64,000 bases of DNA from a virus (taxonomy: Duplodnaviria; Heunggongvirae; Uroviricota; Caudoviricetes): IMG/VR virus record IMGVR_UViG_3300044475_000054, positions 1 to 64,000 of that record; one strand, 5' to 3'. Each line of letters begins with the position of its first letter. The stretch's first letter is position 1. A model generated the notes under the pieces. That model saw nothing but the letters and a program-made list of their open reading frames with translations. It ran no database searches and was not told the origin of the DNA. Positions 672 through 62,263 of the stretch are shown here, piece by piece. The translations under genes were made by a program, and so were the position numbers.

Positions 672-904
672 GTAGCGGTATGGAAGCACCTGAATGGAAT
701 GATTTCCTTATGTCACTAGCCAATGATGGACGCTTTGTTGATTTAAAAGAAGTTCAATCTGTTGAGAATCAATTAAAATTTGCTAACTCAAAGTTAGGAG
801 AAATAGCTTTGGTGTTGCAGGAGTATTACACAGGAAGTTATACAACAATTGAAGAATTAGCTGGTGAGATAAGCGTTGTGTTGTATGGTGAAGAAGATGA
901 CTAA
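668..904 (+). CDS. hypothetical early protein
   Basis: ORF whose start overlaps the upstream stop (ATGA). Confidence 0.5.
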   Translation: MSSGMEAPEWNDFLMSLANDGRFVDLKEVQSVENQLKFANSKLGEIALVLQEYYTGSYTTIEELAGEISVVLYGEEDD

Positions 905-1178
905 CCTGATGCAAGATTTAATGTTTTCCATTAAGAAAGAAATTGATTACCAACCAATCTTAGAAGAAGCTTGTAAACGTGTTGTTGAGAAATATAACCC
1001 TTACCCAAGTCAATGTAATTTAGACTACTTCTATGACCATAAACATATGGTCGAAAGTATCAACGTAAAGATTGGTGATGTTGTTCATGCTGTTGTAGTG
1101 TGTGGTAAGTTTATTGAAAATATTGATCCAAACAAACTACAATATACAAAACCATATGTTATTTATTTAGGAGATTAA
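876..1178 (+). CDS. hypothetical early protein (start uncertain, alternative ATGs at 885 and 897)
   Basis: 100-aa ORF. The 5' end overlaps the previous gene by 29 nt, so the true start is probably downstream. Confidence 0.45.
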   Translation: MCCMVKKMTNLMQDLMFSIKKEIDYQPILEEACKRVVEKYNPYPSQCNLDYFYDHKHMVESINVKIGDVVHAVVVCGKFIENIDPNKLQYTKPYVIYLGD

Positions 1179-1179
1179 G

Positions 1180-1695
1180 ATGGGAGTTATACTGTTTTTA
1201 ATTGTGTTGTGTGCGTTGGGTTTTGTAGGATTCCTAATATACAATGCAGATACAAAAGATGATAATCAAGGTGTCGTGTTACCAATTAAGCAAAGGTTTA
1301 AGAACGCTGATGATATGCAGAGACAATTCTTAGAAGCGTACATATGGGCTTGTAATGTATTTGGTGTAAAAAAGAATGTGTACGATACCTTGTATGAAAA
1401 TTGTGTTAAATACCCAAGTTTAGGTGTTGTGTACCACACATATTATGAAGTTTCAACATCAACCTACTCTCACTACCCTAATATTCCTCAAACAAACAAT
1501 AAAGTACGTACTTGGGATAACGTCATACAACAGGAGAAATTTGTCATAGAGTTTCTAGGGATTGTGAATAAACTTCGAAATAGTATAGATGCTGAAGAAG
1601 TTAAATTATTTACAAAATACAATATTCCTTTTAAAAACTTGTTGACAAGAGAGTTTGAAGTGAATACTATGAAACTGTTTTCACTACCTCAATAA
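1180..1695 (+). CDS. membrane-anchored hypothetical protein (N-terminal TM helix)
   Basis: N-terminus MGVILFLIVLCALGFVGFLIY is a hydrophobic helix. RBS ggagattaagATG. Confidence 0.55.
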   Translation: MGVILFLIVLCALGFVGFLIYNADTKDDNQGVVLPIKQRFKNADDMQRQFLEAYIWACNVFGVKKNVYDTLYENCVKYPSLGVVYHTYYEVSTSTYSHYPNIPQTNNKVRTWDNVIQQEKFVIEFLGIVNKLRNSIDAEEVKLFTKYNIPFKNLLTREFEVNTMKLFSLPQ

Positions 1696-1744
1696 ACACT
1701 TAGCTATTTAGCTAACAAATATTTAAACATTAAGGAGCAACAAA

Positions 1745-2413
1745 ATGTCTTGGTTAAAGAAATTATTTACTGTATCAACTAACTCAGTAAACCAAACAAT
1801 GAATAATGCAGTAGAATCACTTGTAGATATTAAACGTGAAGGTAACGCTTTGATTTCACAATTAGACAAAGATATTAATTCACTACATTCTCGTGTTGTT
1901 GAAGCACAGAAAGAAATTCAACTAAGTAGTTTTGAAATTAGTAAGAATGATGAATTAATTTATAACCACACAGAGACAGCTAAACGAGCTATCAAAGCAG
2001 GAAATGATGAAGATGCTACACACGCCCTTAGTCGTGTTGAAGGGTTGGAAATGATCTCTAAGACACACCAACAGACAATTGATATTCTACAACCAATCGT
2101 AGATCAACAGATTGAGCACATAAACAAGATGGTTAGTGAGAAGCAACTACTTAAAGCTGAGATTACTCGTTTAGATTTGGAAGAACGTCAATACAAACTA
2201 CGAGCTTCTTTACTTGGCAACACTGGTGTAGAGAAAGGTGGAATTGACATTAACTACTTACGTGAACGTGTAATGAATGCTCGTGCTACTTGTGAAGCTA
2301 AAGAGATCGTTGCATCTAAAGTTACATCAACACAAGTTGACAATGTTCAAGCAACGCCAAGTAATGTTAAATCACGATTAGAAGCTTTGAAAGAGGAAGT
2401 TAAAAGCTCTTAA
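1745..2413 (+). CDS. PspA/IM30 (phage shock protein A / Vipp1 / ESCRT-III-like) family protein
   Basis: The N-terminus (MSWLKKLFTVSTNSVNQTMNNAVESLVDIKREG) mirrors the PspA start [28 protein letters not shown]. The rest is coiled-coil and 222 aa long. RBS taaggagcaacaaaATG. Confidence 0.5.
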   Translation: MSWLKKLFTVSTNSVNQTMNNAVESLVDIKREGNALISQLDKDINSLHSRVVEAQKEIQLSSFEISKNDELIYNHTETAKRAIKAGNDEDATHALSRVEGLEMISKTHQQTIDILQPIVDQQIEHINKMVSEKQLLKAEITRLDLEERQYKLRASLLGNTGVEKGGIDINYLRERVMNARATCEAKEIVASKVTSTQVDNVQATPSNVKSRLEALKEEVKSS

Positions 2414-2451
2414 TTTGACAAATCTGTGACAGTAGTGTTACTATATGAATA

Positions 2452-2484
2452 GGGAGGCTAAATGCTTCCCTTTTTTATTACCAC
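2452..2484 (+). terminator. rho-independent terminator after the PspA-like gene
   Basis: gggaggc-taaat-gcttccc hairpin followed by a T6 run. Confidence 0.5.
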
Positions 2485-2535
2485 GTTCTTTAGTGGGTTA
2501 TCAAAGATACCCAAGAACAGTTAAATAGGAAAATT

Positions 2536-3045
2536 ATGTTTATATTAAAGAAATTAAGAAAGCTCTCAAAAGTGTTAGCTATATGTCTCGTATTTGGCTC
2601 TTTATCGTCTATTACAGCGACTTTACAAGCTGAGACTAATCCTAAACAGTCTCAAACACAAACGCTCTCAAATAAGCAGATAGAGTGTCTTAAGATCAAC
2701 GCTTACATGGAAGCTCGTAATCAAGGTGTAAAAGGAATGCAAGCTGTTACTTGGGTAGTGCTAAACAGGACTAAGCATCCATCATACCCATCAACCCCTT
2801 GTGCTGTCATATACAGCCCCCTACAGTTTAGCTGGACAAGAGGTGGTACAAAGGTGCAGGTTAAAGAGAAAGACGCTTATATGCAAGCTGAGAGAGTTGT
2901 AGAGGGTGTTCTAAGCGGTAAGCTAAAGGATAATACAAACTCATCTACACACTTCCACTCAACACGTATTAAACCTGTTTGGGCTAATCGACTATCTTAC
3001 ACAACAACGATTGGTAGTCATTGTTTTTACAAGTTGAAGAAATAA
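2536..3045 (+). CDS. secreted cell-wall hydrolase, SleB/CwlJ (Hydrolase_2) family
   Basis: Signal peptide (MFILKKLRKLSKVLAICLVFGSLSSITATLQA). Hydrolase_2 motifs: CLKINAYMEARNQG, AVTWVVLNRTKHPSYP, QFSWTRGG, and a C-terminal IGSHCFYK. Confidence 0.7.
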   Translation: MFILKKLRKLSKVLAICLVFGSLSSITATLQAETNPKQSQTQTLSNKQIECLKINAYMEARNQGVKGMQAVTWVVLNRTKHPSYPSTPCAVIYSPLQFSWTRGGTKVQVKEKDAYMQAERVVEGVLSGKLKDNTNSSTHFHSTRIKPVWANRLSYTTTIGSHCFYKLKK

Positions 3046-3143
3046 TTTAAAATAATCTGATATTCGTATTGCAATTTGAGAATGTTTGTTATATTCTTTG
3101 TTTATCGAAACAAATGTTGTAATACGAATTAAGGAGATATAAA

Positions 3144-3341
3144 ATGAGTAACTTAAAATATGCACCAAATGAGACGGTTATTTTTCTTGAGCGTCAAGGT
3201 TATTGTGGACAAATAGTTGTACACTATTGTTCTGGTGAGGTAGCAAACCGATATGAGAAATTGTCGGACATCCCTGAAAGTTGCGGTGGAATATTTTACC
3301 GAACAAACATATCACAATCTGGAGAATCATTATGTGGATGA
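3144..3341 (+). CDS. hypothetical protein (Cys-rich)
   Basis: RBS aaggagatataaaATG. Confidence 0.5.
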   Translation: MSNLKYAPNETVIFLERQGYCGQIVVHYCSGEVANRYEKLSDIPESCGGIFYRTNISQSGESLCG

Positions 3342-3511
3342 AGATTAACAGTAACTTAACAAACATTGAACATGATAAGTGGTATAAAACTTCTATGTTT
3401 CATAATGATGAATACCAAACTGTTCAAGTTATGAAGTTTTATCGTGGTTTGTGGTGGACATCGGATGATGTATACACATATTATGCACCTTCACATATTT
3501 GGAAAGATTAG
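3332..3511 (+). CDS. hypothetical protein (start moved to ATG 3332 from the track ORF 3281)
   Basis: In-frame ATG preceded by ggaga, and it abuts the upstream gene. Confidence 0.4.
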   Translation: MWMKINSNLTNIEHDKWYKTSMFHNDEYQTVQVMKFYRGLWWTSDDVYTYYAPSHIWKD

Positions 3512-3520
3512 GAGAGAGCG

Positions 3521-3703
3521 ATGAAAACATTAGATGACGTATTATACGGGTTGCGAGTTAAGATAGTTTGTGACGATTATAATGAATGCTTTGGTACAAT
3601 CATAGAGGTTACAGATAACGCAAGACCTTTTACAGTGAATGTTGATTATCTTGGTGTAACTGAGTTCAATACAAGCGAACTTATTATTTTAGAGGATGTA
3701 TAA
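3521..3703 (+). CDS. hypothetical protein
   Basis: RBS aggagagagcgATG. Confidence 0.5.
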   Translation: MKTLDDVLYGLRVKIVCDDYNECFGTIIEVTDNARPFTVNVDYLGVTEFNTSELIILEDV

Positions 3704-4139
3704 TATGGGTAACAACTTAACATTACAACAAATGGAATCTTTAGACATTGGAAAATGGATGTCAGATGTTGAGAAAGAAAAAGCAATTGCTAAAGCTTTA
3801 GAACTGCAAGCTGTGTGCTTAGAAACTTCTAATGAGGTTTTAAAGAAAAAGACTCTTGAAGAAACACTACGAGATGGTGGTCTATTTACTTATACACTTG
3901 GAAAGAAGAAGTACAAGTTGAATGTACTAACCAAAGCCGATCTTGCTTTGTTGGATAACATCGAGAATGATATTGAAGCTGGAATTGAGTATGATATTGT
4001 TAAACCTTTTCGCTACCATGTGTTGACAGCGTTAGATACATATCTTACAATCAAAGCTCAAACATACACAGAAGCACAATCCGTAGTTGATTCAATACTG
4101 GGTGTTGGTCGTTATAGCGTCAGTGCTTCAAATCTTTAA
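3696..4139 (+). CDS. hypothetical protein
   Basis: 147-aa ORF overlapping the previous stop. Confidence 0.5.
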   Translation: MYNMGNNLTLQQMESLDIGKWMSDVEKEKAIAKALELQAVCLETSNEVLKKKTLEETLRDGGLFTYTLGKKKYKLNVLTKADLALLDNIENDIEAGIEYDIVKPFRYHVLTALDTYLTIKAQTYTEAQSVVDSILGVGRYSVSASNL

Positions 4140-4153
4140 TTAAGGAGAAACAA

Positions 4154-4642
4154 ATGAGTAGTTCAGTAACAAGTAAATTTAAGAAAGGTGACAAGGTGAT
4201 TCGTGTAGGTAACACATCAGCGATTGGTGTTGAGTTTGGTGAAGTATACACGGTAAACAATCCAAGTAGTCATAGTGGTCGTTACGAGGGTGAATTACAT
4301 AATCACGTAACATTAGTAGAAGTCAAAAGTACACCTAGTGACAAATACCTTGAGTTATATGTTGAACAACGTAATTATCGTGAAATGAGTCAAAACGATT
4401 TAATTACAATCTCAATTAATGGTGTTGAATCGGAAGTACCTCTTGGTGATATTATCCATGCTGTAGCTATTCTTGGTGTTACGAACGGTTATCATGGTGC
4501 TCGTATTTGGGAAGCTTTACGCAAACCTTTTGACCACGAAGGTTTTGTACAAGATATGGACACAGTAGTTGAGTTTAGAGATAAACAGAAAGAAGCTCTT
4601 GATTATTTCTTTAAACCTTATTATGATAAGCAACAGAAATAG
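4154..4642 (+). CDS. hypothetical protein
   Basis: RBS taaggagaaacaaATG. 162 aa. Confidence 0.55.
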   Translation: MSSSVTSKFKKGDKVIRVGNTSAIGVEFGEVYTVNNPSSHSGRYEGELHNHVTLVEVKSTPSDKYLELYVEQRNYREMSQNDLITISINGVESEVPLGDIIHAVAILGVTNGYHGARIWEALRKPFDHEGFVQDMDTVVEFRDKQKEALDYFFKPYYDKQQK

Positions 4643-8069: not shown

Positions 8070-8104
8070 AACGCAATGACTTAAATAGTTGTTGCGTTTT
8101 TTAT
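8070..8104 (+). terminator. rho-independent terminator
   Basis: aacgcaa/ttgcgtt stem followed by T6. Confidence 0.5.
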
Positions 8105-10355: not shown

Positions 10356-10400
10356 TTAGTCAAACAACTAAATAATTCAAAGCATGTTAGCATTAATTTG

Positions 10401-10429
10401 TTGACATGCTTTTTCTATTTGTGTACTAT
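10401..10429 (+). promoter_or_regulatory. sigma70-like promoter ttgaca-N17-tactat
   Basis: TTGACA 10401-10406, 17-nt spacer, TACTAT 10424-10429. Confidence 0.45.
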
Positions 10430-12514: not shown

Positions 12515-12593
12515 TTACAAAAGGAATTGACTTAATAGTTGATTCCTTTCTTGTTTTGTACTACACTAATTTCATAAATTAAGGAGATATGTT

Positions 12594-22002: not shown

Positions 22003-23886
22003 ATGAACCAAGTAAAGAGTTTATTAAAAATAAATCCATCCAACCTTACAGAAGATATTTCTACAAACACACAAACCTTAGTTGTACCTACAGGTTTACA
22101 CTACATGAGTGAAGTGCTAGAAGACTTACCCAAAGGAGTATTCATTGATAAACAAGTATGTGGTGTTGGTGGTACTACGTTAGCTATCAAGTCCAACACT
22201 AATTACGTTATCGCTGTACATCGTAAGCTCCTTGTTGAAAACAAACACATCCAACATCCAGATATTTTAGTTAAAGTTCTAGGTGGTGTCAAGGTTGATG
22301 ATATTATTAGTCAAGTTAAATCTGGTAAGAATAAGATCATTACAACTTATGATGGTTTAAAGAAAGTATCAGAAGCTTTAGGTAGTCTTGGTGTGTTAAA
22401 TCATTTCCATCTCTTAGTAGATGAGGTTCAGAATGTTATTCGAGAAGGTGGAGATTTTAGAGATGAGGTGTGTAACTACTTACTGGATAATAGTTGTAAC
22501 TTTGCTTCTGTATCCTACCTAACAGCTACGTCAACAGAACGAAAATATCTTCCAGAACAGATTAGAGATATTCCATACCTAAAGATTGAATGGGAAGATA
22601 GCGTTAACATCAAGGTTAATCAGAAACACATCAAGGGTGATCTTACTCAAGCTATCACAGCTATCGCTTTAGAGCACTTGGATGACTCTAGTAAAGGTGA
22701 AGCTTATTTCTTCTTCAATAGTGTTAGAGGAATCCTGCCTGTTATTAAGAACCTTATTAAGTTGAGAACAGTAACAGAAGAAGACATTAAGATTATTTGT
22801 GCTGATAGTGAAGATAATGAGAAATTGTTAAACTCTCTTGGTGGTGTATGGAAACCTGAGAGACCTTTAGACCAAGATAAGGATGGTAACTTAGTTGTAA
22901 ATAACAAGACGATTACGTTTATCACTAAAACTTGTTTTGAGGGTGTTGACTACTACTCAGATAATCCTGTAACCTACATCGTGTCTGATGCTAGGAATAA
23001 AGAGAAGCACTTCGTTAAGACAGACATTGCTATTGATATTAGACAGATTGCTGGCAGATTTCGTACAGCTAACCCAATGTCTAAACAGGAAGTAGTGTTG
23101 CTTTGGACTGGTCAGTATGAGGGGTTTGGTTTGTCTGAACAAGAGTACGAGGAGCATGTACTGCAAGAGATTGAGAAAGCTAAGAACACGATCAATCTTG
23201 TCAATAGTGGTCAAATCCATTCAACTCTAGAACAGTTAGCTAAGACATCTAAATATTATACAGAACGCGATGGGGTTGTGTGCTTAAACAACCTAGCCTA
23301 CAGTAATATCATGTCTGAGTATCGAACACAGTACGAAGATTTCAAAGTAGTTGTGGATGGTGGTAAGGAGATTAAAGCTTTGGATAACCGTTTGAATAAA
23401 CTTTATGATGTTGACAACTATGTCATACCGAAGCTATCACCTTTAGACAAAACTGGTCTAGGGAAGAAACTGAATTTCGCTGAGGTGTCTTATGATCTAT
23501 ACAACCTACTTTCTTTAGGTGTCGATAATGAGGAGGTTAGAAATATCTACTTAGCTTGTCCTCGACTTAAAGAGTATGTAGATGAGCTTGGTTTTGATAT
23601 TCTTAAAACACTAGGTTATCAAGAAAGTAAGATCAAAGTTAAGTTCAATGAATCTATTGGTTCTAAAGAAACTTCACTAAGACTCAAAGACGTGCAAGAC
23701 TGCTTAAATTTTAGTATTGGTGATAAGTACACTTCTAAGCAGTTGAAAGACTTGTTTGCTGAGTGTTTTGAATCCTTATCTATTAACAAAACAAGTAAAG
23801 CTAGTTGTGTGTTAGACTACTACAGCGTTGGTCGTGCTAACATTAATGGTTGTAGAGGTTATAAGATTCTTGGTAAATTAAGTTAA
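22003..23886 (+). CDS. SF2 helicase-like protein with degenerate motif I (no P-loop lysine)
   Basis: Motif II LLVDEVQN, motif III LTATST, motif VI QIAGRFRT. Where motif I should be there is VPTGLHYMS or CGVGGTT, with no GKT/S. 627 aa. RBS taaggagtatacatacttacATG. Confidence 0.5.
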   Translation: MNQVKSLLKINPSNLTEDISTNTQTLVVPTGLHYMSEVLEDLPKGVFIDKQVCGVGGTTLAIKSNTNYVIAVHRKLLVENKHIQHPDILVKVLGGVKVDDIISQVKSGKNKIITTYDGLKKVSEALGSLGVLNHFHLLVDEVQNVIREGGDFRDEVCNYLLDNSCNFASVSYLTATSTERKYLPEQIRDIPYLKIEWEDSVNIKVNQKHIKGDLTQAITAIALEHLDDSSKGEAYFFFNSVRGILPVIKNLIKLRTVTEEDIKIICADSEDNEKLLNSLGGVWKPERPLDQDKDGNLVVNNKTITFITKTCFEGVDYYSDNPVTYIVSDARNKEKHFVKTDIAIDIRQIAGRFRTANPMSKQEVVLLWTGQYEGFGLSEQEYEEHVLQEIEKAKNTINLVNSGQIHSTLEQLAKTSKYYTERDGVVCLNNLAYSNIMSEYRTQYEDFKVVVDGGKEIKALDNRLNKLYDVDNYVIPKLSPLDKTGLGKKLNFAEVSYDLYNLLSLGVDNEEVRNIYLACPRLKEYVDELGFDILKTLGYQESKIKVKFNESIGSKETSLRLKDVQDCLNFSIGDKYTSKQLKDLFAECFESLSINKTSKASCVLDYYSVGRANINGCRGYKILGKLS

Positions 23887-23934: not shown

Positions 23935-24387
23935 TTAACTCATCCACTCTTTAAAAGATAATCTTGTATCGCTAACAAGACACCAGTATAAGAAGAATAC
24001 TGTATTGAAAATCAGCCATGTTCCACTAATTACAAGTGACAGCGAAGAGAACACGATTAAAATAACCTCCCACCAACAAGCACTTCGACTGTTTTCTGTT
24101 TTAACTAAAGTTATATGTTGATCTTCTGTGTAACTGTGAAAAGTAGATGAACTGACAATATGCTCCTTACCATTAACAGATAACATATAGTCTGTACATG
24201 TTGATCTATTTTTACTTGTCCCACACTCGTAGTCGATTGATCTCTTATTATCTACCATACCTTGAGCTGTGATTACCTCTTTACTACCTCCAAAACCGTG
24301 TACTAATGGTTTTAAGGTTAAAGGTGCTAACACTGTTCCAAGTATAATTAGAATTAAAACAACCTTACGTAATAATTTTCTATGCAT
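23935..24387 (-). CDS. membrane-anchored protein (start moved to internal ATG 24387)
   Basis: ATG 24387 has the RBS caggagctatgaaATG and opens with a signal-anchor MHRKLLRKVVLILIILGTVLAPL. A second TM lies near the C-terminus. Confidence 0.45.
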   Translation of the reverse strand: MHRKLLRKVVLILIILGTVLAPLTLKPLVHGFGGSKEVITAQGMVDNKRSIDYECGTSKNRSTCTDYMLSVNGKEHIVSSSTFHSYTEDQHITLVKTENSRSACWWEVILIVFSSLSLVISGTWLIFNTVFFLYWCLVSDTRLSFKEWMS

Positions 24388-24388
24388 T

Positions 24389-24625
24389 TCATAGCTCCTG
24401 TTTTGCAATATCAAATAGTAATTGTATGTTAAAGTATAACTCCATAACTTCTTTAGTTGTCCTATCTGTTTGTGGAATCTTGTCAAATAGTAATTCAAAC
24501 AATCCTGCTTGTAAGTTATCATAGCTGTTACTACAACGTGCTAACCACCCATCAACATATAACTCTATCACACTTGGTTTCTTAAGTGAAACAGAATACC
24601 CACCTATCTTTCTAGTTACTTCCAC
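24389..24625 (-). CDS. hypothetical protein
   Basis: ORF abutting the downstream gene. RBS gagattATG. Confidence 0.45.
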   Translation of the reverse strand: MEVTRKIGGYSVSLKKPSVIELYVDGWLARCSNSYDNLQAGLFELLFDKIPQTDRTTKEVMELYFNIQLLFDIAKQEL

Positions 24626-24737
24626 TCATAATCTCCTTTAATCTAAGATATTAACTATATTACACCACTATTTTCAATAAAGCAATAAAAAGAGGACATA
24701 AAGCCCTCTAATTTTAATTTAATTACGATTAACTGCG

Positions 24738-25306: not shown

Positions 25307-25309
25307 TAA

Positions 25310-26125: not shown

Positions 26126-26135
26126 CTTAAATCTC

Positions 26136-26333: not shown

Positions 26334-26382
26334 TTTTAAAATCTCCTTAAATTAATTTGTTCTCTAAATATAATACAACTGA

Positions 26383-34193: not shown

Positions 34194-35249
34194 ATGAAAA
34201 CACTCAAATTACGCATAAAAGACAAACACGCAAAGGTGCTAAATCAGATGGCTTCTGAGGTTAATTTTGTCTGGAATTATGTGAACGATTTGGGTTTCAA
34301 GCATCTAAAAAGAAAGGGCGAGTTTCTTTCAGCATACGATATTGCCAAGTATACAAAAGGCGCATCAAAAGAATGCAATCTACATAGCCAAACGATTCAG
34401 GCTGTGACCGAAGAATTAGTCATACGAAGAAAACAGTTCAAGAAAGCAAAGTTGAAATGGCGTGTCAGTAATAAAAAATCAGCTAGGCGTTCATTGGGTT
34501 GGATACCGTTCAAAAAGGTTGCAATCAAATATGCTGATGGCTACGTGCAGTATGGCAAGCATCAATTCAAGCTATGGGATAGCTATGGACTATCAAAATA
34601 CAATGTTAGAACAGGCGCATTTGTAGAGGATAGTCGTGGGCGTTGGTATGTGTGTCTTGTTGTGGATTCACCTAAGCAAGATAAACCAAAGGCAACCAAA
34701 GCAATCGGTATTGATCTAGGCTTGAAAGATGTTGCCACCTGTTCTGATGGTACGGTTGTTTCAAATCCTAAGTTCTATCGTAAATATGAGCAGAAATTAG
34801 GGATTGCTCAAAGAGCAAGAAATAAGGAGCGTGTTCGTGCATTACACGCAAAAATTGCCAATAGTCGTAAAGACCATTTGCATAAAGCAAGTACTATGCT
34901 TGTAAAAAATAATGCTATGATTGTTGTAGGTGACTTGAGTGCTAAAAAACTTGTAAAAACTAAAATGGCGAAATCTGTTTTAGATACAGGATTTTCAGCA
35001 CTCAAAACAATGCTCAAGTACAAATGCGAGAACGCAGGAGTATTGTTTGAAGAAGTCAACGAATCATATACCACCCGAACTTGTAATTTTTGTAGTGGAG
35101 ATACTGGACCACGTGGAATTAACGGTCTTGGAATAAGAGAATGGGAGTGTCGTGACTGCGGTACAGTTCATGATAGAGATGTAAACTCAGCTCTTAACAT
35201 TCTTGCGCTCGGGCATGAGCGTCTAGTAGTAGGAATCCCCTTGCTTTAG
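34194..35249 (+). CDS. tnpB: IS200/IS605-family TnpB (OrfB) RNA-guided nuclease homolog, with an apparent Glu-to-Gly change at RuvC-II
   Basis: OrfB_IS605 layout. RuvC-I AIGIDLGLKD. Central MIVVGDLSAKKL where the family has ivvEdL. Zinc finger CNFCSG...CRDCG. RuvC-III HDRDVNSALNIL. RBS tagaggtttaaATG. Confidence 0.8.
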   Translation: MKTLKLRIKDKHAKVLNQMASEVNFVWNYVNDLGFKHLKRKGEFLSAYDIAKYTKGASKECNLHSQTIQAVTEELVIRRKQFKKAKLKWRVSNKKSARRSLGWIPFKKVAIKYADGYVQYGKHQFKLWDSYGLSKYNVRTGAFVEDSRGRWYVCLVVDSPKQDKPKATKAIGIDLGLKDVATCSDGTVVSNPKFYRKYEQKLGIAQRARNKERVRALHAKIANSRKDHLHKASTMLVKNNAMIVVGDLSAKKLVKTKMAKSVLDTGFSALKTMLKYKCENAGVLFEEVNESYTTRTCNFCSGDTGPRGINGLGIREWECRDCGTVHDRDVNSALNILALGHERLVVGIPLL

Positions 35250-35763: not shown

Positions 35764-37908
35764 ATGATTTCAAATAGTGGAACCACTTCGCTTGGTTTGT
35801 ATGATTTTAAACGTCAGATTGATTCTTTTGGCGGGGTAGATTATTTCCGCCCTAGTCTGGTTGGTGGTTACTTACCTAACGCTCGTGTAATGTTAGCTAA
35901 TGGTGATATTGTCCAGAATAGCACAGATGTTAATTTAACCAATGATCCTAATAGTGATATGACAGGGTGGGAAAACCCCAAAGATAAAATCTTAAATCTT
36001 GATGACTTTAAAACTGGCGCTAACACCGACGCAGATGCTTTCTATGCGATGTTGGCTTACGCTAAAGCAAAAGGTATTAAGTCGCTAAACATTACACGAG
36101 ATATTACGCTTGATCGCAAAATCACAATGACTCAAGATGCTTCGCTGTGGTTAAACTCAATCAATATTGATTTTCACGGGCATAAAGTAAACTGGACAGG
36201 CGTTGGCGCAGATAATCTATCAATAGGTGTTTTTGAAACATTTGGTATTTTGTCGGCAACTACTACTACGGTTACAACAGATTATCCTGAATACACAAGC
36301 GAATTGACCGTTGCGAATGCAGCAGGCTTTGCTGTGGGCGACTGGATTTTGATTGATAGCACATCAGCTTCCAAACCCGACATTTACTTAAACTTTATTG
36401 CAAAAATTGAAGGTATTAGTGGGAATATAATTCAAACCGATACGGTTCGTCGCTTGGCTGTTCGCCCTTCTGTTGCTACCGTGAATATAACAAAGGTAGT
36501 ACCTGTTGATGGGTTTAAAATCACAGGAAACCCCCTTGTTACAGCAACCAATCAAACAGCACGTACCAATGGGATTGGTGCAGTTCAGTATCAATATTGC
36601 GTAAACTCACATGCTTATGTTAAGTCTGAAAAACTATGGTTTAAAACTTTCCGATCGTCTCAGTGTTCACGTTTAACTGTGATTGCGAATGGTGAAAAGC
36701 CTGCGGCAACTGGAGGCGGTGAAGGTTATGTTGTACAGCTTGAATATACAACCCATTCAATCGTTAAGGCGAACGCTGATAATATGCGCCATTGTGTAGA
36801 CCTCACAATGGCGTGGCATAATAATATTATTGATAGTTATGACTTTGAGAGCGCGTCTGCTTCATACGGATGCCATGCTGCATTTGAATACAATAACCAC
36901 TTTTGGCGTTGTGTTTCTATCCGTTCTGCGCAATACGGCTTTCAGGGGGCAGCTTCTACAGGAACTTTTGGGGATACGGTTGATGAGTTGCATCTGCATG
37001 ATTGTCAGGTTCTCGAAAGCACCTTGCAGTGTGTAAGTTTCGCCAATAAGGGGAAAGGGTTGCATGTTAATGGTGGTCGATATGATGGCAAGTCGTATTC
37101 CATCATAACCTCAAATAACGACACTATTATTAATGGCGCAAAACTATATGGTGGCGTTCAAGTCACAAGCTCTGCTGATATGTACACAGGAGGTATTTGT
37201 GAGGTTCGCAATAGTGAGACTGTGATTAAGAGCGGGACTCGTGCTGCTAATATTGTTGCAGATCGTAGTATTAAGTTTGTTGGTGGCTCTGTTAGCGGGT
37301 TAATAGCCGCAGGGTTAAATACAGTAATTGAAACACTCAACACCGAAGTTATTTGTCCATCCAATACAAGTTTGATTGGGAGCTTTAATACTGTTACTTT
37401 AAAAATGAAGGGTGGTAAATTTATCATTCCTAATGGTGCAACAGCAGATCAAACCAACATTTTAAAAGTTGTTGATATGGACGGGGTTGAGTTTGTACAG
37501 ACGGATGTTGCCCGAGGGAACAGCTTGCTTGGCGCTAAGACATCAATCCGAAATTGCACAGGCTCTAGTCGATTTGCTTTTAATGGTTCTAGCGTGTCAG
37601 ATTTGGAGTTAAGAGACAACACTCTATCCGCAGTTACTACAGCACCACTTGTAACGCTTCTAAACTTTACAGGTAAAGTGAAGATAAACAATAATACACT
37701 GTCTGCATCAAATAGCGCTTTTCTTATTGGTACAACCAACACAATCAGTAAACTACAAATGATGGGTAACGACATCACTGGCGCTACAAGCATTCCAGAC
37801 GGCCAAGTCACAAGCGGCATTGTGCAAGGTAATATGTTCGCAGGCACAACAACACTGCCGACAAATGGCGCAAATAAGTTTGTAGATTCAAATATCATTA
37901 CAGCTTAA
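35764..37908 (+). CDS. tailspike / tail fiber protein with predicted right-handed beta-helix (pectate-lyase-like) domain
   Basis: 714 aa. Recurrent Asn/Gly-rich repeats typical of beta-helix depolymerases (ITRDITLDRKITMTQDASLWLNSINIDFHGHKVNWTG, VNGGRYDG, TIINGAKLYGG). RBS ataaggataatataATG. Confidence 0.5.
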   Translation: MISNSGTTSLGLYDFKRQIDSFGGVDYFRPSLVGGYLPNARVMLANGDIVQNSTDVNLTNDPNSDMTGWENPKDKILNLDDFKTGANTDADAFYAMLAYAKAKGIKSLNITRDITLDRKITMTQDASLWLNSINIDFHGHKVNWTGVGADNLSIGVFETFGILSATTTTVTTDYPEYTSELTVANAAGFAVGDWILIDSTSASKPDIYLNFIAKIEGISGNIIQTDTVRRLAVRPSVATVNITKVVPVDGFKITGNPLVTATNQTARTNGIGAVQYQYCVNSHAYVKSEKLWFKTFRSSQCSRLTVIANGEKPAATGGGEGYVVQLEYTTHSIVKANADNMRHCVDLTMAWHNNIIDSYDFESASASYGCHAAFEYNNHFWRCVSIRSAQYGFQGAASTGTFGDTVDELHLHDCQVLESTLQCVSFANKGKGLHVNGGRYDGKSYSIITSNNDTIINGAKLYGGVQVTSSADMYTGGICEVRNSETVIKSGTRAANIVADRSIKFVGGSVSGLIAAGLNTVIETLNTEVICPSNTSLIGSFNTVTLKMKGGKFIIPNGATADQTNILKVVDMDGVEFVQTDVARGNSLLGAKTSIRNCTGSSRFAFNGSSVSDLELRDNTLSAVTTAPLVTLLNFTGKVKINNNTLSASNSAFLIGTTNTISKLQMMGNDITGATSIPDGQVTSGIVQGNMFAGTTTLPTNGANKFVDSNIITA

Positions 37909-57834: not shown

Positions 57835-58137
57835 ATGCAAGAGAATTTACATGAGATGTGGCAAGCTATTTTAAACTATTGGTTCTTAATTGCAGCTATC
57901 ACAACAACGTTTATCATGGCGCTAATTCGCACAGCGAAGAAGAACGGTAAAATTGATTACCTAGAATCGATAATGTGCGCCCTTTTTACGTACGGTGTTT
58001 GGTTCGTCCTAACTTGGTTGAACCTCCCAGAAGGCATTGGTGTACTTATCGGTGGTCTGATCGGGTACTCTGGAACGCATGTAACAAGTAAGTGGTTGTA
58101 TAAAAAACTTGGTATTGATTTAGAAGAAAAAGAATAA
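57835..58137 (+). CDS. holin-like membrane protein (3 predicted TM helices, charged C-terminus)
   Basis: YWFLIAAITTTFIMALI, IMCALFTYGVWFVLTWL, GIGVLIGGLIGYSG, then KKLGIDLEEKE. RBS tggggtgaggtATG. Confidence 0.4.
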   Translation: MQENLHEMWQAILNYWFLIAAITTTFIMALIRTAKKNGKIDYLESIMCALFTYGVWFVLTWLNLPEGIGVLIGGLIGYSGTHVTSKWLYKKLGIDLEEKE

Positions 58138-58152
58138 TAGAGGAATAATCAA

Positions 58153-58500
58153 ATGTCTTGCACAACAAACAATAAACCTTATTTTAAGATTGGTGATTCA
58201 TTTGATGTCCCTATTCAGATGATTGATGCAACAACAGGTGACGCTGTTGAAATTACAGCAGGAATGACTTTTACAAGTAATATTGTAAACTTAACAGGAG
58301 AGGTTATTGCTTCTCCTACTATCACCCCTTATTCAGATCAAGTTATCAATAAAGGTTACTTACTTCTTAGTGTTCCAACAAGTGTAACATCTACTTGGGA
58401 AGTTGGTAAAGTTAAAACTGATATAAAAATGGAAATCAGTGGTTCTGTTAGACACTCTCAAGAGTTCTCATTTTATATTACGGAGGCTATTACACCATGA
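58153..58500 (+). CDS. hypothetical tail-module protein
   Basis: RBS tagaggaataatcaaATG. Confidence 0.45.
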   Translation: MSCTTNNKPYFKIGDSFDVPIQMIDATTGDAVEITAGMTFTSNIVNLTGEVIASPTITPYSDQVINKGYLLLSVPTSVTSTWEVGKVKTDIKMEISGSVRHSQEFSFYITEAITP

Positions 58501-60005
58501 ATTTAGCTTTCAAAGTGTATTGGAACAACCCTATTGAGATGTCTACACAAGCATCTCTACAACCTTTAGTGTTTGAAGTTCCTCTGGGGGCAATGATTGT
58601 AGATATTGCCAATATAGAGAATTACTACACAAAAACAGAGACAGAAGCTTACGCTGACAATAAAGTACAACAAACAGTAGTCAACGGTGTGACAGATTCA
58701 GCGCCAAGTCAGGATGCTGTGTACGACAGATTGCAAGTTAAACAGAATCTACCAACAGGTTATCTTACTGGTTGGCAATTGAGTATAAACACTTTAGATA
58801 ATACTAAGTTCGATATATCTGCGGGTAGCGGTATCGTCACAGACTTTACTGATCTAACAGGAATACAACCTGAGGTTAAACAAACGTTATCTCCGTTTGT
58901 TGGGTTATCACCTCAGTTCTTATTAACACATCCAGCAAGTTATATTGCTTTTGATAAAGATTTAAATGTTGTTCAATCTAGCTCTCCATTCACTAATGAA
59001 GACAGACGAACACTGATGATCTTAGGAAGTGTGATTCATTCTAACAATATTAATATCAACGTTACGAATGAAATCAAAGCTCCTATCGTAGCTCCAACAA
59101 ATCAATTACACGACTTCATGTTAGCTATTGGGGCTTTAAATCTAATTGGAAATGAGATTGTTCCAAATGGTAGTAACTTATCTATAAACATTACTGCTGG
59201 TACAGTGTGGAAGATGGGTATTAGTGCAAGTAATCAATTAAACCCACACCAATTAAACTTCCCACTACGTACAGCTCCACTGTTTACTTATCGTTTACGT
59301 AACAGTACAGAGTATGTTGCTTCAACCTTATTAGACCCAACACACTACGATTTAAATGGTGTTAGAACAACTTTATCGAATAATAATAGATGGTCAATAC
59401 AACGTTTCTATTTATTCCAATCGGGGTTAGTTAGAGCGCAGTATGGTCAAGCTGAATATTCATCATACCAGAATGCTTTGAATGCTTTATTATCCGAACC
59501 ATTCGCAACAGAACAGAATATTAAAGACAATGGTTTATTGATTGCTCGTGTGGTTATGAAGAAGACTTGTGTTGATTTACAAGCTGATATTTCATTAGGT
59601 ATTGCATCCATACATATTGCAGATAAGTTTGGTAATACAAATGCAATCTCTGCTGTTACTGCTGCATCAATCATTGGAGCTTTAGGTTATACACCAGCAA
59701 GTACACGTAAAACAGTAAATAATCAAGCTGTTAGTTACACATTACAACTTACAGATGCAGCTAACGTAGTACGTACAACAGGAGCAGGAGCTACAAACAT
59801 CACAGTTCCAAATAGTACGACAGTTGCTTTTACCCCACAAGATCGGATTGAGTTGCAATACTACGGTACAGGACAACCAACTGTAGTTCCAGCATCAGGA
59901 GTAGCTATTCGAGTAGTTGGTGGAGGTAGTTTAGCTCTAACACCTCAGTACAGTAGAGTTACTCTTGAGTATGTTGGAAGCAATGAATGGATAATGTTTA
60001 AATAA
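58497..60005 (+). CDS. tail fiber / receptor-binding protein (putative)
   Basis: 502 aa, Asn/Thr/Ser-rich, ATGA-coupled. Last structural gene before the lysis genes. Confidence 0.45.
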   Translation: MNLAFKVYWNNPIEMSTQASLQPLVFEVPLGAMIVDIANIENYYTKTETEAYADNKVQQTVVNGVTDSAPSQDAVYDRLQVKQNLPTGYLTGWQLSINTLDNTKFDISAGSGIVTDFTDLTGIQPEVKQTLSPFVGLSPQFLLTHPASYIAFDKDLNVVQSSSPFTNEDRRTLMILGSVIHSNNININVTNEIKAPIVAPTNQLHDFMLAIGALNLIGNEIVPNGSNLSINITAGTVWKMGISASNQLNPHQLNFPLRTAPLFTYRLRNSTEYVASTLLDPTHYDLNGVRTTLSNNNRWSIQRFYLFQSGLVRAQYGQAEYSSYQNALNALLSEPFATEQNIKDNGLLIARVVMKKTCVDLQADISLGIASIHIADKFGNTNAISAVTAASIIGALGYTPASTRKTVNNQAVSYTLQLTDAANVVRTTGAGATNITVPNSTTVAFTPQDRIELQYYGTGQPTVVPASGVAIRVVGGGSLALTPQYSRVTLEYVGSNEWIMFK

Positions 60006-60022
60006 ATTTAGAGGAAATTAAA

Positions 60023-60586
60023 ATGACAAATAAAACTTATATTATTACAAATACAGCGGGACATTCTGAGAAAGATAGTGGCGCTGTTACTAAGAAAGAC
60101 GGTAAGTTGATTAAAGAGGCAGATTTAGCTGTTAAGTTCCGTAACGCTATTCTGCATTACCTACAACAAGATAAGAGCATTATCACTCGTACAGACGGTT
60201 ATGGTACAACTAACCTAAGTCTTAATGAAGCTGCTAAATTGATTGATGGTGCTGACCTGAGTATTGAATGGCACTTGAATGCGTCTAGTAATTCATCCGC
60301 TACTGGCGTAGAGACAATCGCTTTGCCTAAAGATAAGGTATTAGCTCAGAAGATTTCTGCTGTTGTTGCTGAAGCTTTCGGTTTGAAGTTAAGAGGACGT
60401 GACGGGTGGATAGATCAATCTGAATCTGCTCGTGGTAAATTACTATTTGTTAGTAAAGGTGGATTAATTGGAGAGCTTGGGTTTATCAGTTCAATTAAAG
60501 ACCTAGAAGCTTTTGAAGCTCGTTACTGGGTTGCAGCTAAAGCTGTAGCAGAAGTAATGATTGACTACGTTAAGAATAAGAAGTAA
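60023..60586 (+). CDS. endolysin, N-acetylmuramoyl-L-alanine amidase (Amidase_3 family)
   Basis: Amidase_3 pattern: ITNTAGHSEKDSGAV, SIEWHLNAS, GVETIALP, LLFVSKGGLIGELGFISS. RBS ttagaggaaattaaaATG. Confidence 0.7.
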   Translation: MTNKTYIITNTAGHSEKDSGAVTKKDGKLIKEADLAVKFRNAILHYLQQDKSIITRTDGYGTTNLSLNEAAKLIDGADLSIEWHLNASSNSSATGVETIALPKDKVLAQKISAVVAEAFGLKLRGRDGWIDQSESARGKLLFVSKGGLIGELGFISSIKDLEAFEARYWVAAKAVAEVMIDYVKNKK

Positions 60587-60604
60587 TTGATAAAGGGAAT
60601 AACT

Positions 60605-61171
60605 ATGAATGTATTACTTATACTGAGTGCGTTAAAGAAAGGATGGAGCTACACAAAAGGGTTCTTAGCTTTAGCTTTGAAATACTGGTACATTGTAGTT
60701 ATCATCCTTATGCTTATTATTAACAGTTCTCTTAGAAATGATATTGTTGATTTAAATAAAGAGAAAGACACATTAAATCAGAATATGGTTGCTTTAGTAC
60801 AGAAGAATAAGACTGACCTACTAGAAGCACAAAAGAAAGCTCAAGAGAAAGAGATTGAGATACTAACTAAACAAAAAGAGGTTGAGGTTAAATACAATGA
60901 ACAAATCAAAGCTCTTAGTAATGATGTTGCTATTGCTCGTAATTCCGCTAACAGCTTGCAACAAAAACTTAACACAAACGCAAGTAAATTCAACACCCTT
61001 ACCTACAACCAAGCTGTTGCCTACAACAACACAATCTCAAAGTTATTCTCAGAGAGTATCGAAGAATATCGAGAAATGGGAAGTAGAGCTGATGAGCATC
61101 GATTAGCAGAAGAAAGGTGCATTGGTTTGTACAATTCCCTTGTAGATAGCAATACAGAAGTAAAAGAATAA
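60605..61171 (+). CDS. i-spanin (Rz-like): N-terminal TM, periplasmic coiled coil
   Basis: TM YWYIVVIILMLIINSSL followed by coiled-coil. Immediately downstream of the endolysin. RBS aagggaataactATG at 60605. Confidence 0.55.
   Translation: MNVLLILSALKKGWSYTKGFLALALKYWYIVVIILMLIINSSLRNDIVDLNKEKDTLNQNMVALVQKNKTDLLEAQKKAQEKEIEILTKQKEVEVKYNEQIKALSNDVAIARNSANSLQQKLNTNASKFNTLTYNQAVAYNNTISKLFSESIEEYREMGSRADEHRLAEERCIGLYNSLVDSNTEVKE
60897..61106 (+). CDS. o-spanin (Rz1-like) lipoprotein embedded in the +1 frame of the i-spanin gene
   Basis: MNKSKLLVMMLLLLVIPLTAC lipobox, then a Pro/Thr/Gln-rich mature part. Wholly inside 60605-61171 in another frame. RBS gaggttaaatacaATG. Confidence 0.55.
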   Translation: MNKSKLLVMMLLLLVIPLTACNKNLTQTQVNSTPLPTTKLLPTTTQSQSYSQRVSKNIEKWEVELMSID

Positions 61172-62261: not shown

Positions 62262-62263
62262 AC

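What the first reader, a model, noticed from the sequence alone, without database searches (positions are those of the whole stretch)
1745..3045. Early-region pair: PspA/IM30-like membrane-stress protein followed by a Sec-secreted SleB-type cell-wall hydrolase
A phage-encoded PspA homolog is uncommon. Here it precedes a signal-peptide-bearing Hydrolase_2 enzyme that is separate from the Amidase_3 endolysin in the lysis cassette at 60023. A secreted muralytic enzyme expressed early, together with a membrane-stabilising ESCRT-III-like protein, might remodel the envelope during infection or act against competing cells, or counter envelope-stress or abortive-infection responses.
Basis: partly seen in the sequence, partly recalled or inferred. 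Interest (0 to 1): 0.6.

Follow-up and report, generated by a model that had tools for sequence, protein, structure and literature searches.

The report
Phage PspA cassette beside unrelated hydrolase
A phage of a Gram-negative host carries a rare, very divergent PspA-type membrane-protecting gene whose conserved partner is the small membrane protein upstream of it, while the exported cell-wall enzyme next door is a common, independently shuffled phage gene.

Summary
Both ORFs exist exactly as described (1745..2413, 222 aa; 2536..3045, 169 aa). The second is a clear Hydrolase_2/SleB-type catalytic domain (86.7 bits vs cut-off 27) behind a leader with all the features of a cleavable Sec signal. 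The first fails Pfam PspA_IM30 as a single sequence (E 0.21). It is nevertheless a genuine, divergent PspA/IM30 (ESCRT-III superfamily) protein: profile-profile 99.2% (E 1.7e-19, end to end), its family profile finds only Vipp1/PspA in the PDB, and an AlphaFold model matches Vipp1/PspA. The proposed functional pair is not supported. Each gene occurs without the other in related phages, their identities are discordant (95% vs 48% in one relative), a conserved terminator-like hairpin separates them, and one variant lacks exactly the PspA-like gene plus its upstream gene while keeping the hydrolase. The conserved partner is the upstream single-pass membrane protein (1180..1695), linked to PspA-like genes in three diverged phage groups. 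Relatives are already annotated "PspA/IM30" in Acinetobacter phage records, and signal-peptide SleB-like hydrolases are known in more than 1,200 phage records. Verdict: real and correctly named, but these are two ordinary mosaic modules. The membrane-protein/PspA cassette is the modestly interesting part. Its function is untested.

The parts
1180..1695 (+). up171: single-pass membrane protein (N-terminal TM helix res 2-20, helical C-domain with Y-x-W-A-C-x-x-F-G-V motif). It is the conserved partner gene of the PspA-like gene and belongs to no known family.
   Evidence: Max KD19 hydropathy 2.98 at res 2. Directly upstream of PspA-like in L004, L006, L007, L008, L009 and L013, and one gene removed in L005. 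Homologous to TaPaz_152 (hhalign 97.6%, E 3e-12), TaPaz_153 and Aci05_132. No Pfam, PHROG or PDB hits. AF2 model poor, pLDDT 52.
1642..1670 (+). Sigma70-like promoter box TTGACA-17-TACTAT, 75 nt upstream of the PspA-like start
   Evidence: motif 4 observed vs 0.27 expected. Consensus match only.
1745..2413 (+). orfA: divergent PspA/IM30 (ESCRT-III superfamily) protein, 222 aa. Helices are alpha0 (about 2-20), the alpha1/alpha2+3 hairpin (12-84, 88-157), alpha4 (169-184) and alpha5 (205-221).
   Evidence: (phrog_26980).
2415..2444 (+). Sigma70-like promoter box TTGACA-18-TACTAT (with TG), 92 nt upstream of the hydrolase start
   Evidence: Conserved in L007 and L010.
2451..2480 (+). Terminator-like hairpin AGGGAGGC-TAAAT-GCTTCCCT plus T-run, between the two genes
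   Evidence: The spacer folds with z = -3.86. The hairpin is conserved upstream of the hydrolase in L007, L010, L011, L012 and L013, with compensatory stem changes.
2536..3045 (+). orfB: single-domain Hydrolase_2 (SleB-type, probable lytic transglycosylase) with a predicted Sec signal peptide (res 1-32, predicted cleavage after T-L-Q-A32)
   Evidence: PF07486 86.7 bits. SleB structures 4f55/4fet E 1e-4, with E59 aligned to the GESRGE motif. Leader statistics on 121 homologues. phrog_938.
57835..58137 (+). Holin/antiholin candidate of the late lysis set (context, not part of the finding)
   Evidence: phrog_126 E 8.8e-17.
60023..60586 (+). Amidase_3 endolysin of the canonical lysis cassette (context)
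   Evidence: PF01520 E 1.4e-16. phrog_435 E 2.3e-35.
60587..61171 (+). Rz-like i-spanin with the o-spanin embedded in another frame (60897..61106, lipobox LTAC) (context)
   Evidence: phrog_312 E 5.5e-13 and phrog_11621 E 7.2e-5. Sequences.

Best explanation
The interval holds two independent modules in the left, probably host-RNA-polymerase-transcribed (early) arm of a virulent tailed phage of a Gram-negative host; related contigs run 57-98 kb.

Module 1 is a two-gene cassette: a single-pass inner-membrane protein (1180..1695) and a divergent PspA/IM30 protein (1745..2413). Shown: the homology and the fold, a strongly conserved N-terminal amphipathic helix, linkage of the two genes across three phage groups, and their gain or loss as a unit. 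Inferred: like bacterial PspA, LiaH and Vipp1, the protein binds the cytoplasmic face of the inner membrane through helix alpha0. It then polymerises to seal or stabilise stressed membrane and preserve proton-motive force in the infected cell, for example after genome injection, against premature holin triggering, or against membrane-depolarising abortive-infection effectors. The membrane protein, whose C-domain is predicted to be cytoplasmic, would serve as its anchor or recruiter, much as LiaI does for LiaH or PspB/C for PspA.

Module 2 is a separately promoted and terminated gene for a Sec-exported, single-domain SleB-type muralytic enzyme (probably a lytic transglycosylase). It is an accessory periplasmic peptidoglycan-cleaving enzyme of a kind common in phages of Gram-negative bacteria, additional to the complete holin/Amidase_3/spanin lysis set.

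The adjacency of the two modules results from mosaic gene shuffling and does not reflect a shared function.
For: PspA identity:
- hhalign A2 vs A8: 99.2%, E 1.7e-19, residues 6-222 vs 3-224.
- The A2 profile retrieves bona fide PF04012 proteins (74-110 bits) out of 1.84e9 representatives.
- The A1 profile's top 9 PDB hits are all Vipp1/PspA, in register.
- AF2 pLDDT is 77.8 with the PspA helix pattern. The top Foldseek PDB hits are Vipp1/PspA, and 4WHE superposes at 1.9 A over 116 columns.
- The N-terminal W3, L7, F8, N13, V15, N16 and D28-G33 are invariant in the clade, with an amphipathic moment of 0.38-0.42.

Cassette:
- up171 co-occurs with orfA in every close locus.
- It has homologues in TaPaz, next to the PspA-like gene in Ab3/5/7, BS46 and Phab24, and in the Saclayviruses.
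- Of 20 window genes, only orfA (tblastn; plus up171 by profile) is shared with those loci.
- L010 lacks exactly window 1175-2408.

Independence of the hydrolase: and the hairpin.

Hydrolase identity and export.

Complete late lysis set.

Literature:
- N-terminal amphipathic helices of PspA/Vipp1 are required for membrane binding (PMC4556811 abstract).
- PspA is an ESCRT-III-fold membrane remodeller (PMC8281802).
- SleB-like signal-peptide hydrolases are conserved in Vequintavirinae alongside other lysins, and are toxic on expression (PMC7344957).
- The SleB domain is classed as a lytic transglycosylase (PMC6403190).
Against: - No functional data exist for any phage PspA-like protein (literature searches).
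- The window protein alone is far below the Pfam threshold and misses the NCBIfam PspA/LiaH equivalogs, so its activity may have diverged.
- The partner protein has no detectable homology to PspB, PspC or LiaI. Its model is unreliable and its topology rests only on the positive-inside rule.
- In L005 one gene, and in Aci05 one gene, separates the two cassette genes.
- Expression timing is inferred only from consensus promoter matches. Overall promoter counts do not exceed shuffles (29 vs 21.8 +/- 4.7).
- Signal-peptide cleavage was not predicted with a dedicated tool, so a SAR-type anchor is not excluded.
Confidence: 0.6

Rival explanations
1. One reading: the PspA-like protein and the secreted hydrolase act together. 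For example, PspA buffers the inner-membrane stress caused by early export or activity of a muralytic enzyme, or the two jointly remodel the envelope or counter envelope-based defences.
For: The genes are adjacent in the window/L009, L007 and L013. Both carry the same early-type promoter motif. SleB-like phage hydrolases are toxic when expressed (PMC7344957), so a membrane protector nearby is conceivable.
Against: PspA-like occurs without any hydrolase within 4-5 kb in L004, L005, TaPaz, Aci05 and phiAbaA1. The hydrolase occurs without PspA-like in L010, L011 and L012. In L006 the two are separated by four genes. Identities are 95% vs 48% in L007, with a recombination break at the signal-peptide/mature junction. 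A conserved terminator-like hairpin lies between them and travels with the hydrolase. The hydrolase family has over 285 close homologues against 23 for PspA-like.
Confidence: 0.1
2. orfB is the phage's real, holin-independent endolysin (signal-peptide or SAR type). The Amidase_3 protein at 60023 would then be accessory.
For: Its best PHROG is 'endolysin' (phrog_938). Many GenBank records call the homologues endolysin. A homologue in Cronobacter phage CR3 has been implicated in lysis (PMC7344957). The leader core is 14-20 uncharged residues rich in Ser/Thr/Gly/Ala, so a SAR anchor is not excluded.
Against: A complete canonical set (holin/antiholin, Amidase_3 endolysin, Rz-like i-spanin with embedded o-spanin) sits at 57.8-61.2 kb at the end of the structural genes. 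orfB lies in the left arm among small early-type genes behind a sigma70-like promoter. The T-L-Q-A motif before the mature domain is nearly invariant (A32 in 121/121) while the leader is only 22% identical, which is typical of a cleaved signal. Close relatives L004 and L005 have no hydrolase near this position.
Confidence: 0.15
3. orfA is only a generic coiled-coil protein, and the PspA resemblance is compositional.
For: Single-sequence Pfam E 0.21 (11.6 bits vs 33.9), alongside other weak coiled-coil hits. No NCBIfam PspA hit.
Against: End-to-end, in-register profile matches exclusively to PspA/Vipp1, with unrelated coiled coils at least 300-fold weaker. hhalign 99.2%. 19 of 27 family representatives hit PF04012, with a continuous chain to proteins scoring 74-110 bits. 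Helix boundaries and the hairpin tip motif A-G-N-D-E-D-A-x-x-A-L match PspA. Fold search is dominated by Vipp1/PspA.
Confidence: 0.03

Closest known systems
PspA/IM30-like proteins of Acinetobacter myophages (TaPaz_151, Aci05_134, phiAbaA1_131, Acibel004 'putative shock protein A'; phrog_26980)
   Same: Homologous over the full length (31-42% identity, same 220-232 aa size). Located among small early-type genes. An up171-family membrane protein lies directly upstream in TaPaz and next to the PspA-like gene in Ab3/5/7, BS46 and Phab24, or two genes upstream in Aci05. Already annotated as PspA/IM30 in GenBank.
   Different: A different phage lineage: no DNA similarity, and the terminase is only 45-49% identical to any known phage. 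None of those loci has a Hydrolase_2 gene nearby. No function has been shown for any member.
Bacterial PspA / LiaH and cyanobacterial Vipp1 (IM30), PF04012, ESCRT-III superfamily
   Same: The same alpha0-alpha5 architecture and hairpin, a conserved N-terminal amphipathic helix, and the PspA-like length without the Vipp1 C-terminal extension.
   Different: About 18-20% identity. Below the Pfam gathering score, with no match to the NCBIfam PspA or LiaH equivalogs. No PspB, PspC or PspF neighbours; instead there is an unrelated single-pass membrane protein. Encoded by a virulent phage and absent from 185,579 representative prokaryotic genomes.
Signal-peptide SleB-like cell wall hydrolases of Vequintavirinae and other Gram-negative phages (e.g. 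CB7_83, CR3_087, rV5/FV3 'SleB')
   Same: A single Hydrolase_2 domain behind an N-terminal signal sequence. Encoded apart from other peptidoglycan hydrolases of the same phage. About 35% identity across nearly the full length, including the leader (PMC7344957).
   Different: In CB7 the gene overlaps a putative class II holin. Here no small membrane-protein gene adjoins it, and a complete lysis cassette lies 57 kb away.
Bacillus spore cortex-lytic enzyme SleB (PDB 4F55, 4FET) and CwlJ
   Same: The same catalytic domain. The invariant E59 aligns with the Glu of the SleB GESRGE motif.
   Different: It lacks the N-terminal peptidoglycan-binding domain. It scores 46 bits vs the 236.5 cut-off of the SleB equivalog. 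It has three clade-specific invariant cysteines. From general knowledge, a Gram-negative host lacks the muramic-delta-lactam cortex substrate.

Membership tests
PspA/IM30 family (PF04012; ESCRT-III superfamily) | Single-sequence match to the Pfam model at or above the gathering score (an operational threshold, not a biological feature) | tested here: inconclusive
   11.6 bits, E 0.21 vs GA 33.9, but the alignment is collinear, 15-217 vs 10-216 of 220. Close relatives reach 30-32 bits.
PspA/IM30 family (PF04012; ESCRT-III superfamily) | Full-length sequence homology to bona fide members, shown at profile level | tested here: met
   hhalign 99.2%, E 1.7e-19, 216 columns. The window-clade profile retrieves PF04012 proteins scoring 74-110 bits. 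Vs PDB, the top 9 hits are all Vipp1/PspA.
PspA/IM30 family (PF04012; ESCRT-III superfamily) | Helical architecture: alpha1/alpha2+3 hairpin followed by alpha4 and alpha5 | tested here: met
   AF2 model helices H12-84, H88-157, H169-184 and H205-221, with pLDDT above 89 across the hairpin. Foldseek top hits 7o3w, 8qbr, 6zvr, 7abk; 4whe at rmsd 1.9 A.
PspA/IM30 family (PF04012; ESCRT-III superfamily) | N-terminal amphipathic membrane-binding helix alpha0 | tested here: met
W3, L7, F8, N13, V15 and N16 are invariant. The region aligns to alpha0 of Vipp1. Actual membrane binding was not tested.
PspA/IM30 family (PF04012; ESCRT-III superfamily) | Self-assembly into rings, rods or carpets, and membrane protection or remodelling | not testable with these tools
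   Needs biochemistry or cryo-EM.
Canonical Psp system (pspF-pspABC) or Lia system (liaIH) | PspA encoded with PspB, PspC, PspF or LiaI partners | tested here: not met
   No Pfam hit for the neighbours. The upstream membrane protein has no PspB, PspC or LiaI similarity, and orfA misses the TIGR02977 and LiaH equivalogs. So it works like a PspA with an anchor but is not a member of these systems.
Hydrolase_2 (PF07486, SleB/CwlJ catalytic domain) | Domain match above the gathering score | tested here: met
   86.7 bits vs 27, covering 100/100 model positions.
Hydrolase_2 (PF07486, SleB/CwlJ catalytic domain) | Conserved catalytic glutamate in the E-[AS]-R motif | tested here: met
   E59 and R61 are invariant in 121/121 homologues and align to GESRGE of SleB 4f55/4fet. 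The catalytic role of that Glu is recalled from the SleB structure papers, which were not readable here.
Spore cortex-lytic enzyme SleB proper (TIGR02869) | Equivalog-level match, including the N-terminal PG-binding domain | tested here: not met
   46.4 bits vs cut-off 236.5, and only the C-terminal catalytic part aligns. It is 'SleB-type' by domain only.
Sec (SPase I) signal peptide | Basic n-region, hydrophobic core of about 10-20 residues, small residues at -1/-3, and a leader that diverges much faster than the mature protein | tested here: met
   The n-region MFILKKLRKLSK carries +5. The uncharged core is 14-20 aa. A32 is invariant in 121/121 and L30 in 120/121. The leader is 22% identical vs 87% for the mature part. 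No dedicated predictor was available, and cleavage is untested.
Canonical endolysin of a lysis cassette | Encoded with holin and spanins in the late lysis cluster | tested here: not met
   orfB lies 55 kb from the holin, Amidase_3 and spanin genes, with no TM-protein gene adjoining it downstream.
SAR endolysin | Uncleaved N-terminal weakly hydrophobic Gly/Ala/Ser-rich TM domain that releases from the membrane | tested here: inconclusive
   The core VLAICLVFGSLSSITA is moderately Ser/Thr/Gly/Ala-rich (max KD19 1.78), but it is followed by an invariant A-x-x-x-A type cleavage motif. The two cannot be discriminated without experiment.

The most novel reading that the evidence does not exclude
The membrane-protein + PspA-like cassette is a dedicated phage system that keeps the infected cell's inner membrane energised. 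The phage-made ESCRT-III-like polymer would be recruited by its own anchor to reseal or shield the membrane. This would delay premature holin firing or neutralise membrane-depolarising abortive-infection effectors. It would be the first functional virus-encoded bacterial ESCRT-III/PspA system and a new class of anti-defence or lysis-timing device.
Probability: 0.2. Interest if true: 0.7.

Novelty: new member of a known kind. Interest (0 to 1): 0.35.

Why it matters
PspA/Vipp1 proteins are the bacterial branch of the ESCRT-III membrane-repair superfamily and are named after a response to phage proteins, yet no phage-encoded PspA has been studied. This work shows three things:
- A small phage-restricted PspA subfamily is genuine. 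It has about 29 clusters at 50% identity among 1.84 billion representatives and is absent from representative bacterial genomes.
- Its N-terminal membrane-binding helix is its best conserved part.
- It travels with a private single-pass membrane protein.

That gives a concrete two-gene target for testing whether phages manipulate host membrane integrity or PMF. The result also warns against reading function from adjacency in mosaic early regions, because the neighbouring hydrolase is an unrelated, frequently exchanged gene.

Tried and rejected
- Megablast of 1100-4200 against phages found nothing.
- Pfam and NCBIfam single-sequence searches for PspA gave sub-threshold or no hits.
- PADLOC found nothing meaningful for any of the three proteins.
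- Structure prediction of the upstream membrane protein gave pLDDT 52, too poor for a fold search, so none was run. Pfam on its family members and a family profile against PDB sequences found nothing.
- A scan of 185,579 representative genomes for the PspA-like clade found no relative. IMG/VR returned only the two known Saclayvirus genomes. The A3 alignment was too diverse for that tool.
- Four literature searches for functional work on phage-encoded PspA found none, and the two PSP phylogenomic surveys do not discuss phage copies.
- The SleB structure paper could not be opened.
- A lipoprotein reading of orfB was rejected: the leader cysteine C17 has Ile at the -1 position of the would-be lipobox (sequence) and is replaced in other homologues' leaders (alignment).
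- The host could not be identified. That it is Gram-negative follows from the spanin pair. Acinetobacter or a relative is only a guess from the GC content (31-38%) and the source of the homologues.
Full report
OBSERVATION. Both ORFs are present at the stated coordinates. orfA is 1745..2413 (+, 222 aa) and orfB is 2536..3045 (+, 169 aa). Each has a Shine-Dalgarno sequence: AAGGAG before 1745 and AGGA before 2536.

The window is part of a tailed phage. It encodes a T4-type large terminase, a Mu-type portal, major capsid protein E, a tail tube or minor tail protein, and a 1969-aa ORF taken to be the tape measure. Homologous contigs are 57-98 kb. No known phage is close: megablast finds nothing, and the terminase is at most 49% identical to any phage in the collection.

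- holin/antiholin, 57835..58137;
- Amidase_3 endolysin, 60023..60586;
- Rz-like i-spanin, 60587..61171, with an embedded lipobox-bearing o-spanin at 60897..61106.

The spanin pair shows the host is Gram-negative.

IS orfA A PspA? PF04012 gives E 0.21 and 11.6 bits against a cut-off of 33.9, although the alignment is collinear over the whole model. NCBIfam PspA and LiaH equivalogs do not hit. Four independent lines nevertheless establish homology.

1. Family profile vs solved structures. A profile of the window protein, 13 close homologues and 3 Acinetobacter-phage homologues was searched against all PDB sequences. The top nine hits are all Vipp1 or PspA (best E 2.4e-4), in register (35-220 vs 31-217). 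Unrelated coiled coils start at E 0.078.
2. Exhaustive profile search. A profile of the window clade alone was run against 1.84 billion representative proteins. It finds only 29 proteins at E <= 0.001. The most distant of them (P0044, P0046, P0049, P0050, P0051) are bona fide PF04012 members at 74-110 bits. In all, 19 of 27 representatives hit PF04012.
3. Profile-profile comparison. The window clade compared with those five bona fide members gives 99.2% probability and E 1.7e-19 over 216 columns, residues 6-222 vs 3-224.
4. Structure. An AlphaFold2 model (pLDDT 77.8, above 89 over the hairpin) has helices 12-84, 88-157, 169-184 and 205-221. Its best Foldseek matches in the PDB are almost all Vipp1/PspA. 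The E. coli PspA hairpin 4WHE superposes at 1.9 A over 116 columns.

The protein has PspA length, with no Vipp1 C-terminal extension. The most conserved block in the phage clade is the N-terminus (W3, L7, F8, N13, V15, N16, D28-G33 invariant). This block aligns with helix alpha0 of Vipp1 and is amphipathic. Alpha0 is the membrane-binding element of PspA and Vipp1 (PMC4556811 and the PspA alpha0 preprint).

HOW RARE, AND HOW NEW? tblastn finds orfA-type genes in 28 of 50,697 phage records. All are roughly 94-113 kb Acinetobacter phages (TaPaz, BS46, Acibel004 and Phab24 at about 41-42% identity; P1, D22 and HB01 at 39%; Saclayviruses at 31-36%). A canonical Vipp1 query finds only 2 further records. 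IMG/VR yields only two known Saclayvirus genomes, and 185,579 representative prokaryotic genomes yield none. BFVD shows a few other scattered phage proteins with this fold, in jumbo phage ME3 and Erwinia phage phiEa2809.

However, many of those records already annotate the gene as "PspA/IM30 family protein" or "putative shock protein A". PHROGs has the family as phrog_26980, function unknown. I found no paper addressing its function.

orfB. Hydrolase_2 is unambiguous (86.7 bits vs 27). The protein aligns with the catalytic domains of Bacillus SleB (4F55, 4FET). Its E59 lies in the motif corresponding to SleB GESRGE, and E59 and R61 are invariant in 121 homologues. It is not SleB proper: it scores 46 bits against a 236.5-bit equivalog cut-off and has no PG-binding domain. 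The SleB domain is classed with the lytic transglycosylases (PMC6403190).

The leader has the features of a cleavable Sec signal:
- a basic n-region;
- an uncharged core of 14-20 residues;
- an almost invariant T-A-T-L-Q-A motif (A32 in 121/121);
- only 22% identity in residues 1-26, against 87% in the mature part.

Three cysteines (C51, C89, C163) are invariant in the close homologues. C51 and C89 align with non-cysteine residues in Bacillus SleB, which would suit a periplasmic protein (inference). A SAR-type anchor cannot be formally excluded.

Such proteins are common. The family is found in 1,242 phage records, mainly from Escherichia, Salmonella, Pseudomonas and Klebsiella phages. Homologues are described for all Vequintavirinae as signal-peptide-bearing, toxic on expression, and coexisting with other lysins (PMC7344957). 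SleB-domain "endolysins far from holin" have also been noted in Salmonella phages (PMC11180984).

ARE THEY A PAIR? No. The table gives % identity to the window for the upstream ORF (up171), orfA and orfB in each related locus.

| Locus | up171 | orfA | orfB | Arrangement |
|---|---|---|---|---|
| L009 | 100 | 100 | 100 | adjacent |
| L013 | 56 | 89 | 85 | adjacent |
| L007 | 88 | 95 | 48 | adjacent |
| L006 | 41 | 61 | 38 | four genes apart |
| L004 | 40 | 83 | none | - |
| L005 | 36 | 71 | none | - |
| L010 | none | none | 100 | - |
| L011 | none | none | 79 | - |
| L012 | none | none | 73 | - |
| Acinetobacter phages | none by tblastn | 31-42 | none | - |

The genes following the PspA-like gene in TaPaz, Aci05 and phiAbaA1 have no Hydrolase_2 hit.

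At the DNA level, L010 matches window 894-1174 and 2409-3114. It lacks exactly 1175-2408, which is up171 plus orfA. L007 is collinear with the window up to 2618, the signal-peptide/mature junction, and again from 3023. Its mature hydrolase domain has therefore been swapped. L011 and L012 match the window only from 2609 onward.

The 122-nt spacer holds two elements. One is a TTGACA-18-TACTAT box (2415-2444). The other is a strong terminator-like hairpin with a T-run (2451-2480) (spacer fold z = -3.86). The hairpin is conserved upstream of the hydrolase whatever gene precedes it, with compensatory stem changes. The hydrolase is thus an independent, frequently recombining module.

THE REAL PARTNER. 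The gene upstream of orfA (1180..1695, 171 aa) encodes a protein with an N-terminal TM helix and a helical domain. It accompanies orfA in every locus of the clade.
- It is homologous to TaPaz_152, the gene directly upstream of the TaPaz PspA-like gene (hhalign 97.6%, E 3e-12).
- TaPaz_152 homologues lie next to the PspA-like gene in Ab3, Ab5, Ab7, BS46 and Phab24.
- It is also homologous to a tandem paralogue, TaPaz_153, and to Aci05_132 in the Saclayviruses, two genes upstream of their PspA-like gene.
- phiAbaA1_129 shares the architecture and motif by eye.

Of 20 window genes between 257 and 8062, only orfA has tblastn-detectable homologues in those Acinetobacter loci. The linkage is therefore not residual block synteny. 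Several family members have basic residues immediately after the TM helix, which predicts a cytoplasmic C-domain (inference). The family has no Pfam, PHROG or PDB relatives.

TIMING. The left arm (1-23.9 kb) is a run of small + strand genes. In relatives it starts at a divergent junction with a primase-helicase gene and continues into DNA methylase and thymidylate synthase genes.

The motif TTGACA-N16-18-TACWAT occurs 4 times against 0.27 expected, and 0 of 100 shuffles reach 4. All four are on the + strand at 1642, 2415, 4023 and 10401. Strong sigma70-like matches on the coding strand are about 9-fold denser in 1-5 kb than in the structural region. "Early, host-polymerase transcribed" is therefore plausible for both genes, each from its own promoter, but it remains an inference.

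MECHANISM. Shown: homology, fold, conservation of alpha0, linkage to a membrane protein, and independence from the hydrolase. The rest is inferred from the established behaviour of PspA, LiaH and Vipp1. On that basis the phage protein would bind and polymerise on the cytoplasmic face of the inner membrane, recruited or anchored by the upstream protein. There it would preserve membrane integrity and PMF during infection. I cannot distinguish among three possible purposes: protection from injection damage, prevention of premature holin triggering, and defence against depolarising abortive-infection effectors. The hydrolase is most simply an accessory periplasmic muralytic enzyme whose role is also untested.

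VERDICT. Both genes are new members of known kinds whose relatives are already annotated. The modestly novel result is the conserved membrane-protein + PspA-like cassette.

Noticed in passing
window 34194..35249 (+): A 351-aa TnpB-like protein (OrfB_IS605 plus the Cas12f1-like TNB domain) sits just upstream of the structural module of the phage. No TnpA or omega-RNA was looked for.
   Followed up: no
window 2415..2480; also L007, L010, L011-L013: An early-type promoter box lies immediately upstream of a terminator-like hairpin, so a transcript started there would begin with the hairpin. The element travels with the hydrolase gene and shows compensatory stem changes. Whether it is a terminator, a 5' stabiliser or an attenuator is unexplained.
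   Followed up: partly
window ~2609-2618 (codons ~25-28 of orfB); L007, L011, L012: There is a recurrent recombination breakpoint at the junction between signal peptide and mature domain of the hydrolase. L007 keeps an identical leader (res 1-28) but has a mature domain of about 45% identity. L011 and L012 keep the mature domain with different leaders.
   Followed up: partly
window 8070-8098, 10379-10412, 12520-12549 (+): Long (12-14 bp) AT-rich hairpins followed by T-runs lie in the left arm. The one at 10379-10412 overlaps the -35 box of a TTGACA-17-TACTAT promoter match at 10401-10429, giving a compact terminator/promoter unit.
   Followed up: no
window 57835..61171: The holin/antiholin gene (57835..58137) is separated from the Amidase_3 endolysin and the embedded Rz/Rz1-type spanins (60023..61171) by a 115-aa ORF and a 502-aa tail-fibre gene, so the lysis genes are split by tail genes.
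   Followed up: partly
window 22003..23886 and 35764..37908 (+): Two large ORFs (627 and 714 aa) have no Pfam or PHROG match at all.
   Followed up: no
L007 7336..9264; L011 8022 onward: Relatives carry intein-containing genes downstream of the hydrolase: a DNA methylase with Hint_2/Intein_splicing in L007, and a ThyX with an intein plus HNH in L011.
   Followed up: no
L001 2978..3935 (TaPaz_153, TaPaz_152): In TaPaz the membrane-protein partner of the PspA-like gene is present as two tandem diverged paralogues.
   Followed up: partly
window 24000-32000 and 61200-64000: Strand switches with GC-skew inversion mark two leftward gene blocks (about 23.9-32 kb and 61.2-64 kb) flanking the rightward structural module.
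   Followed up: no
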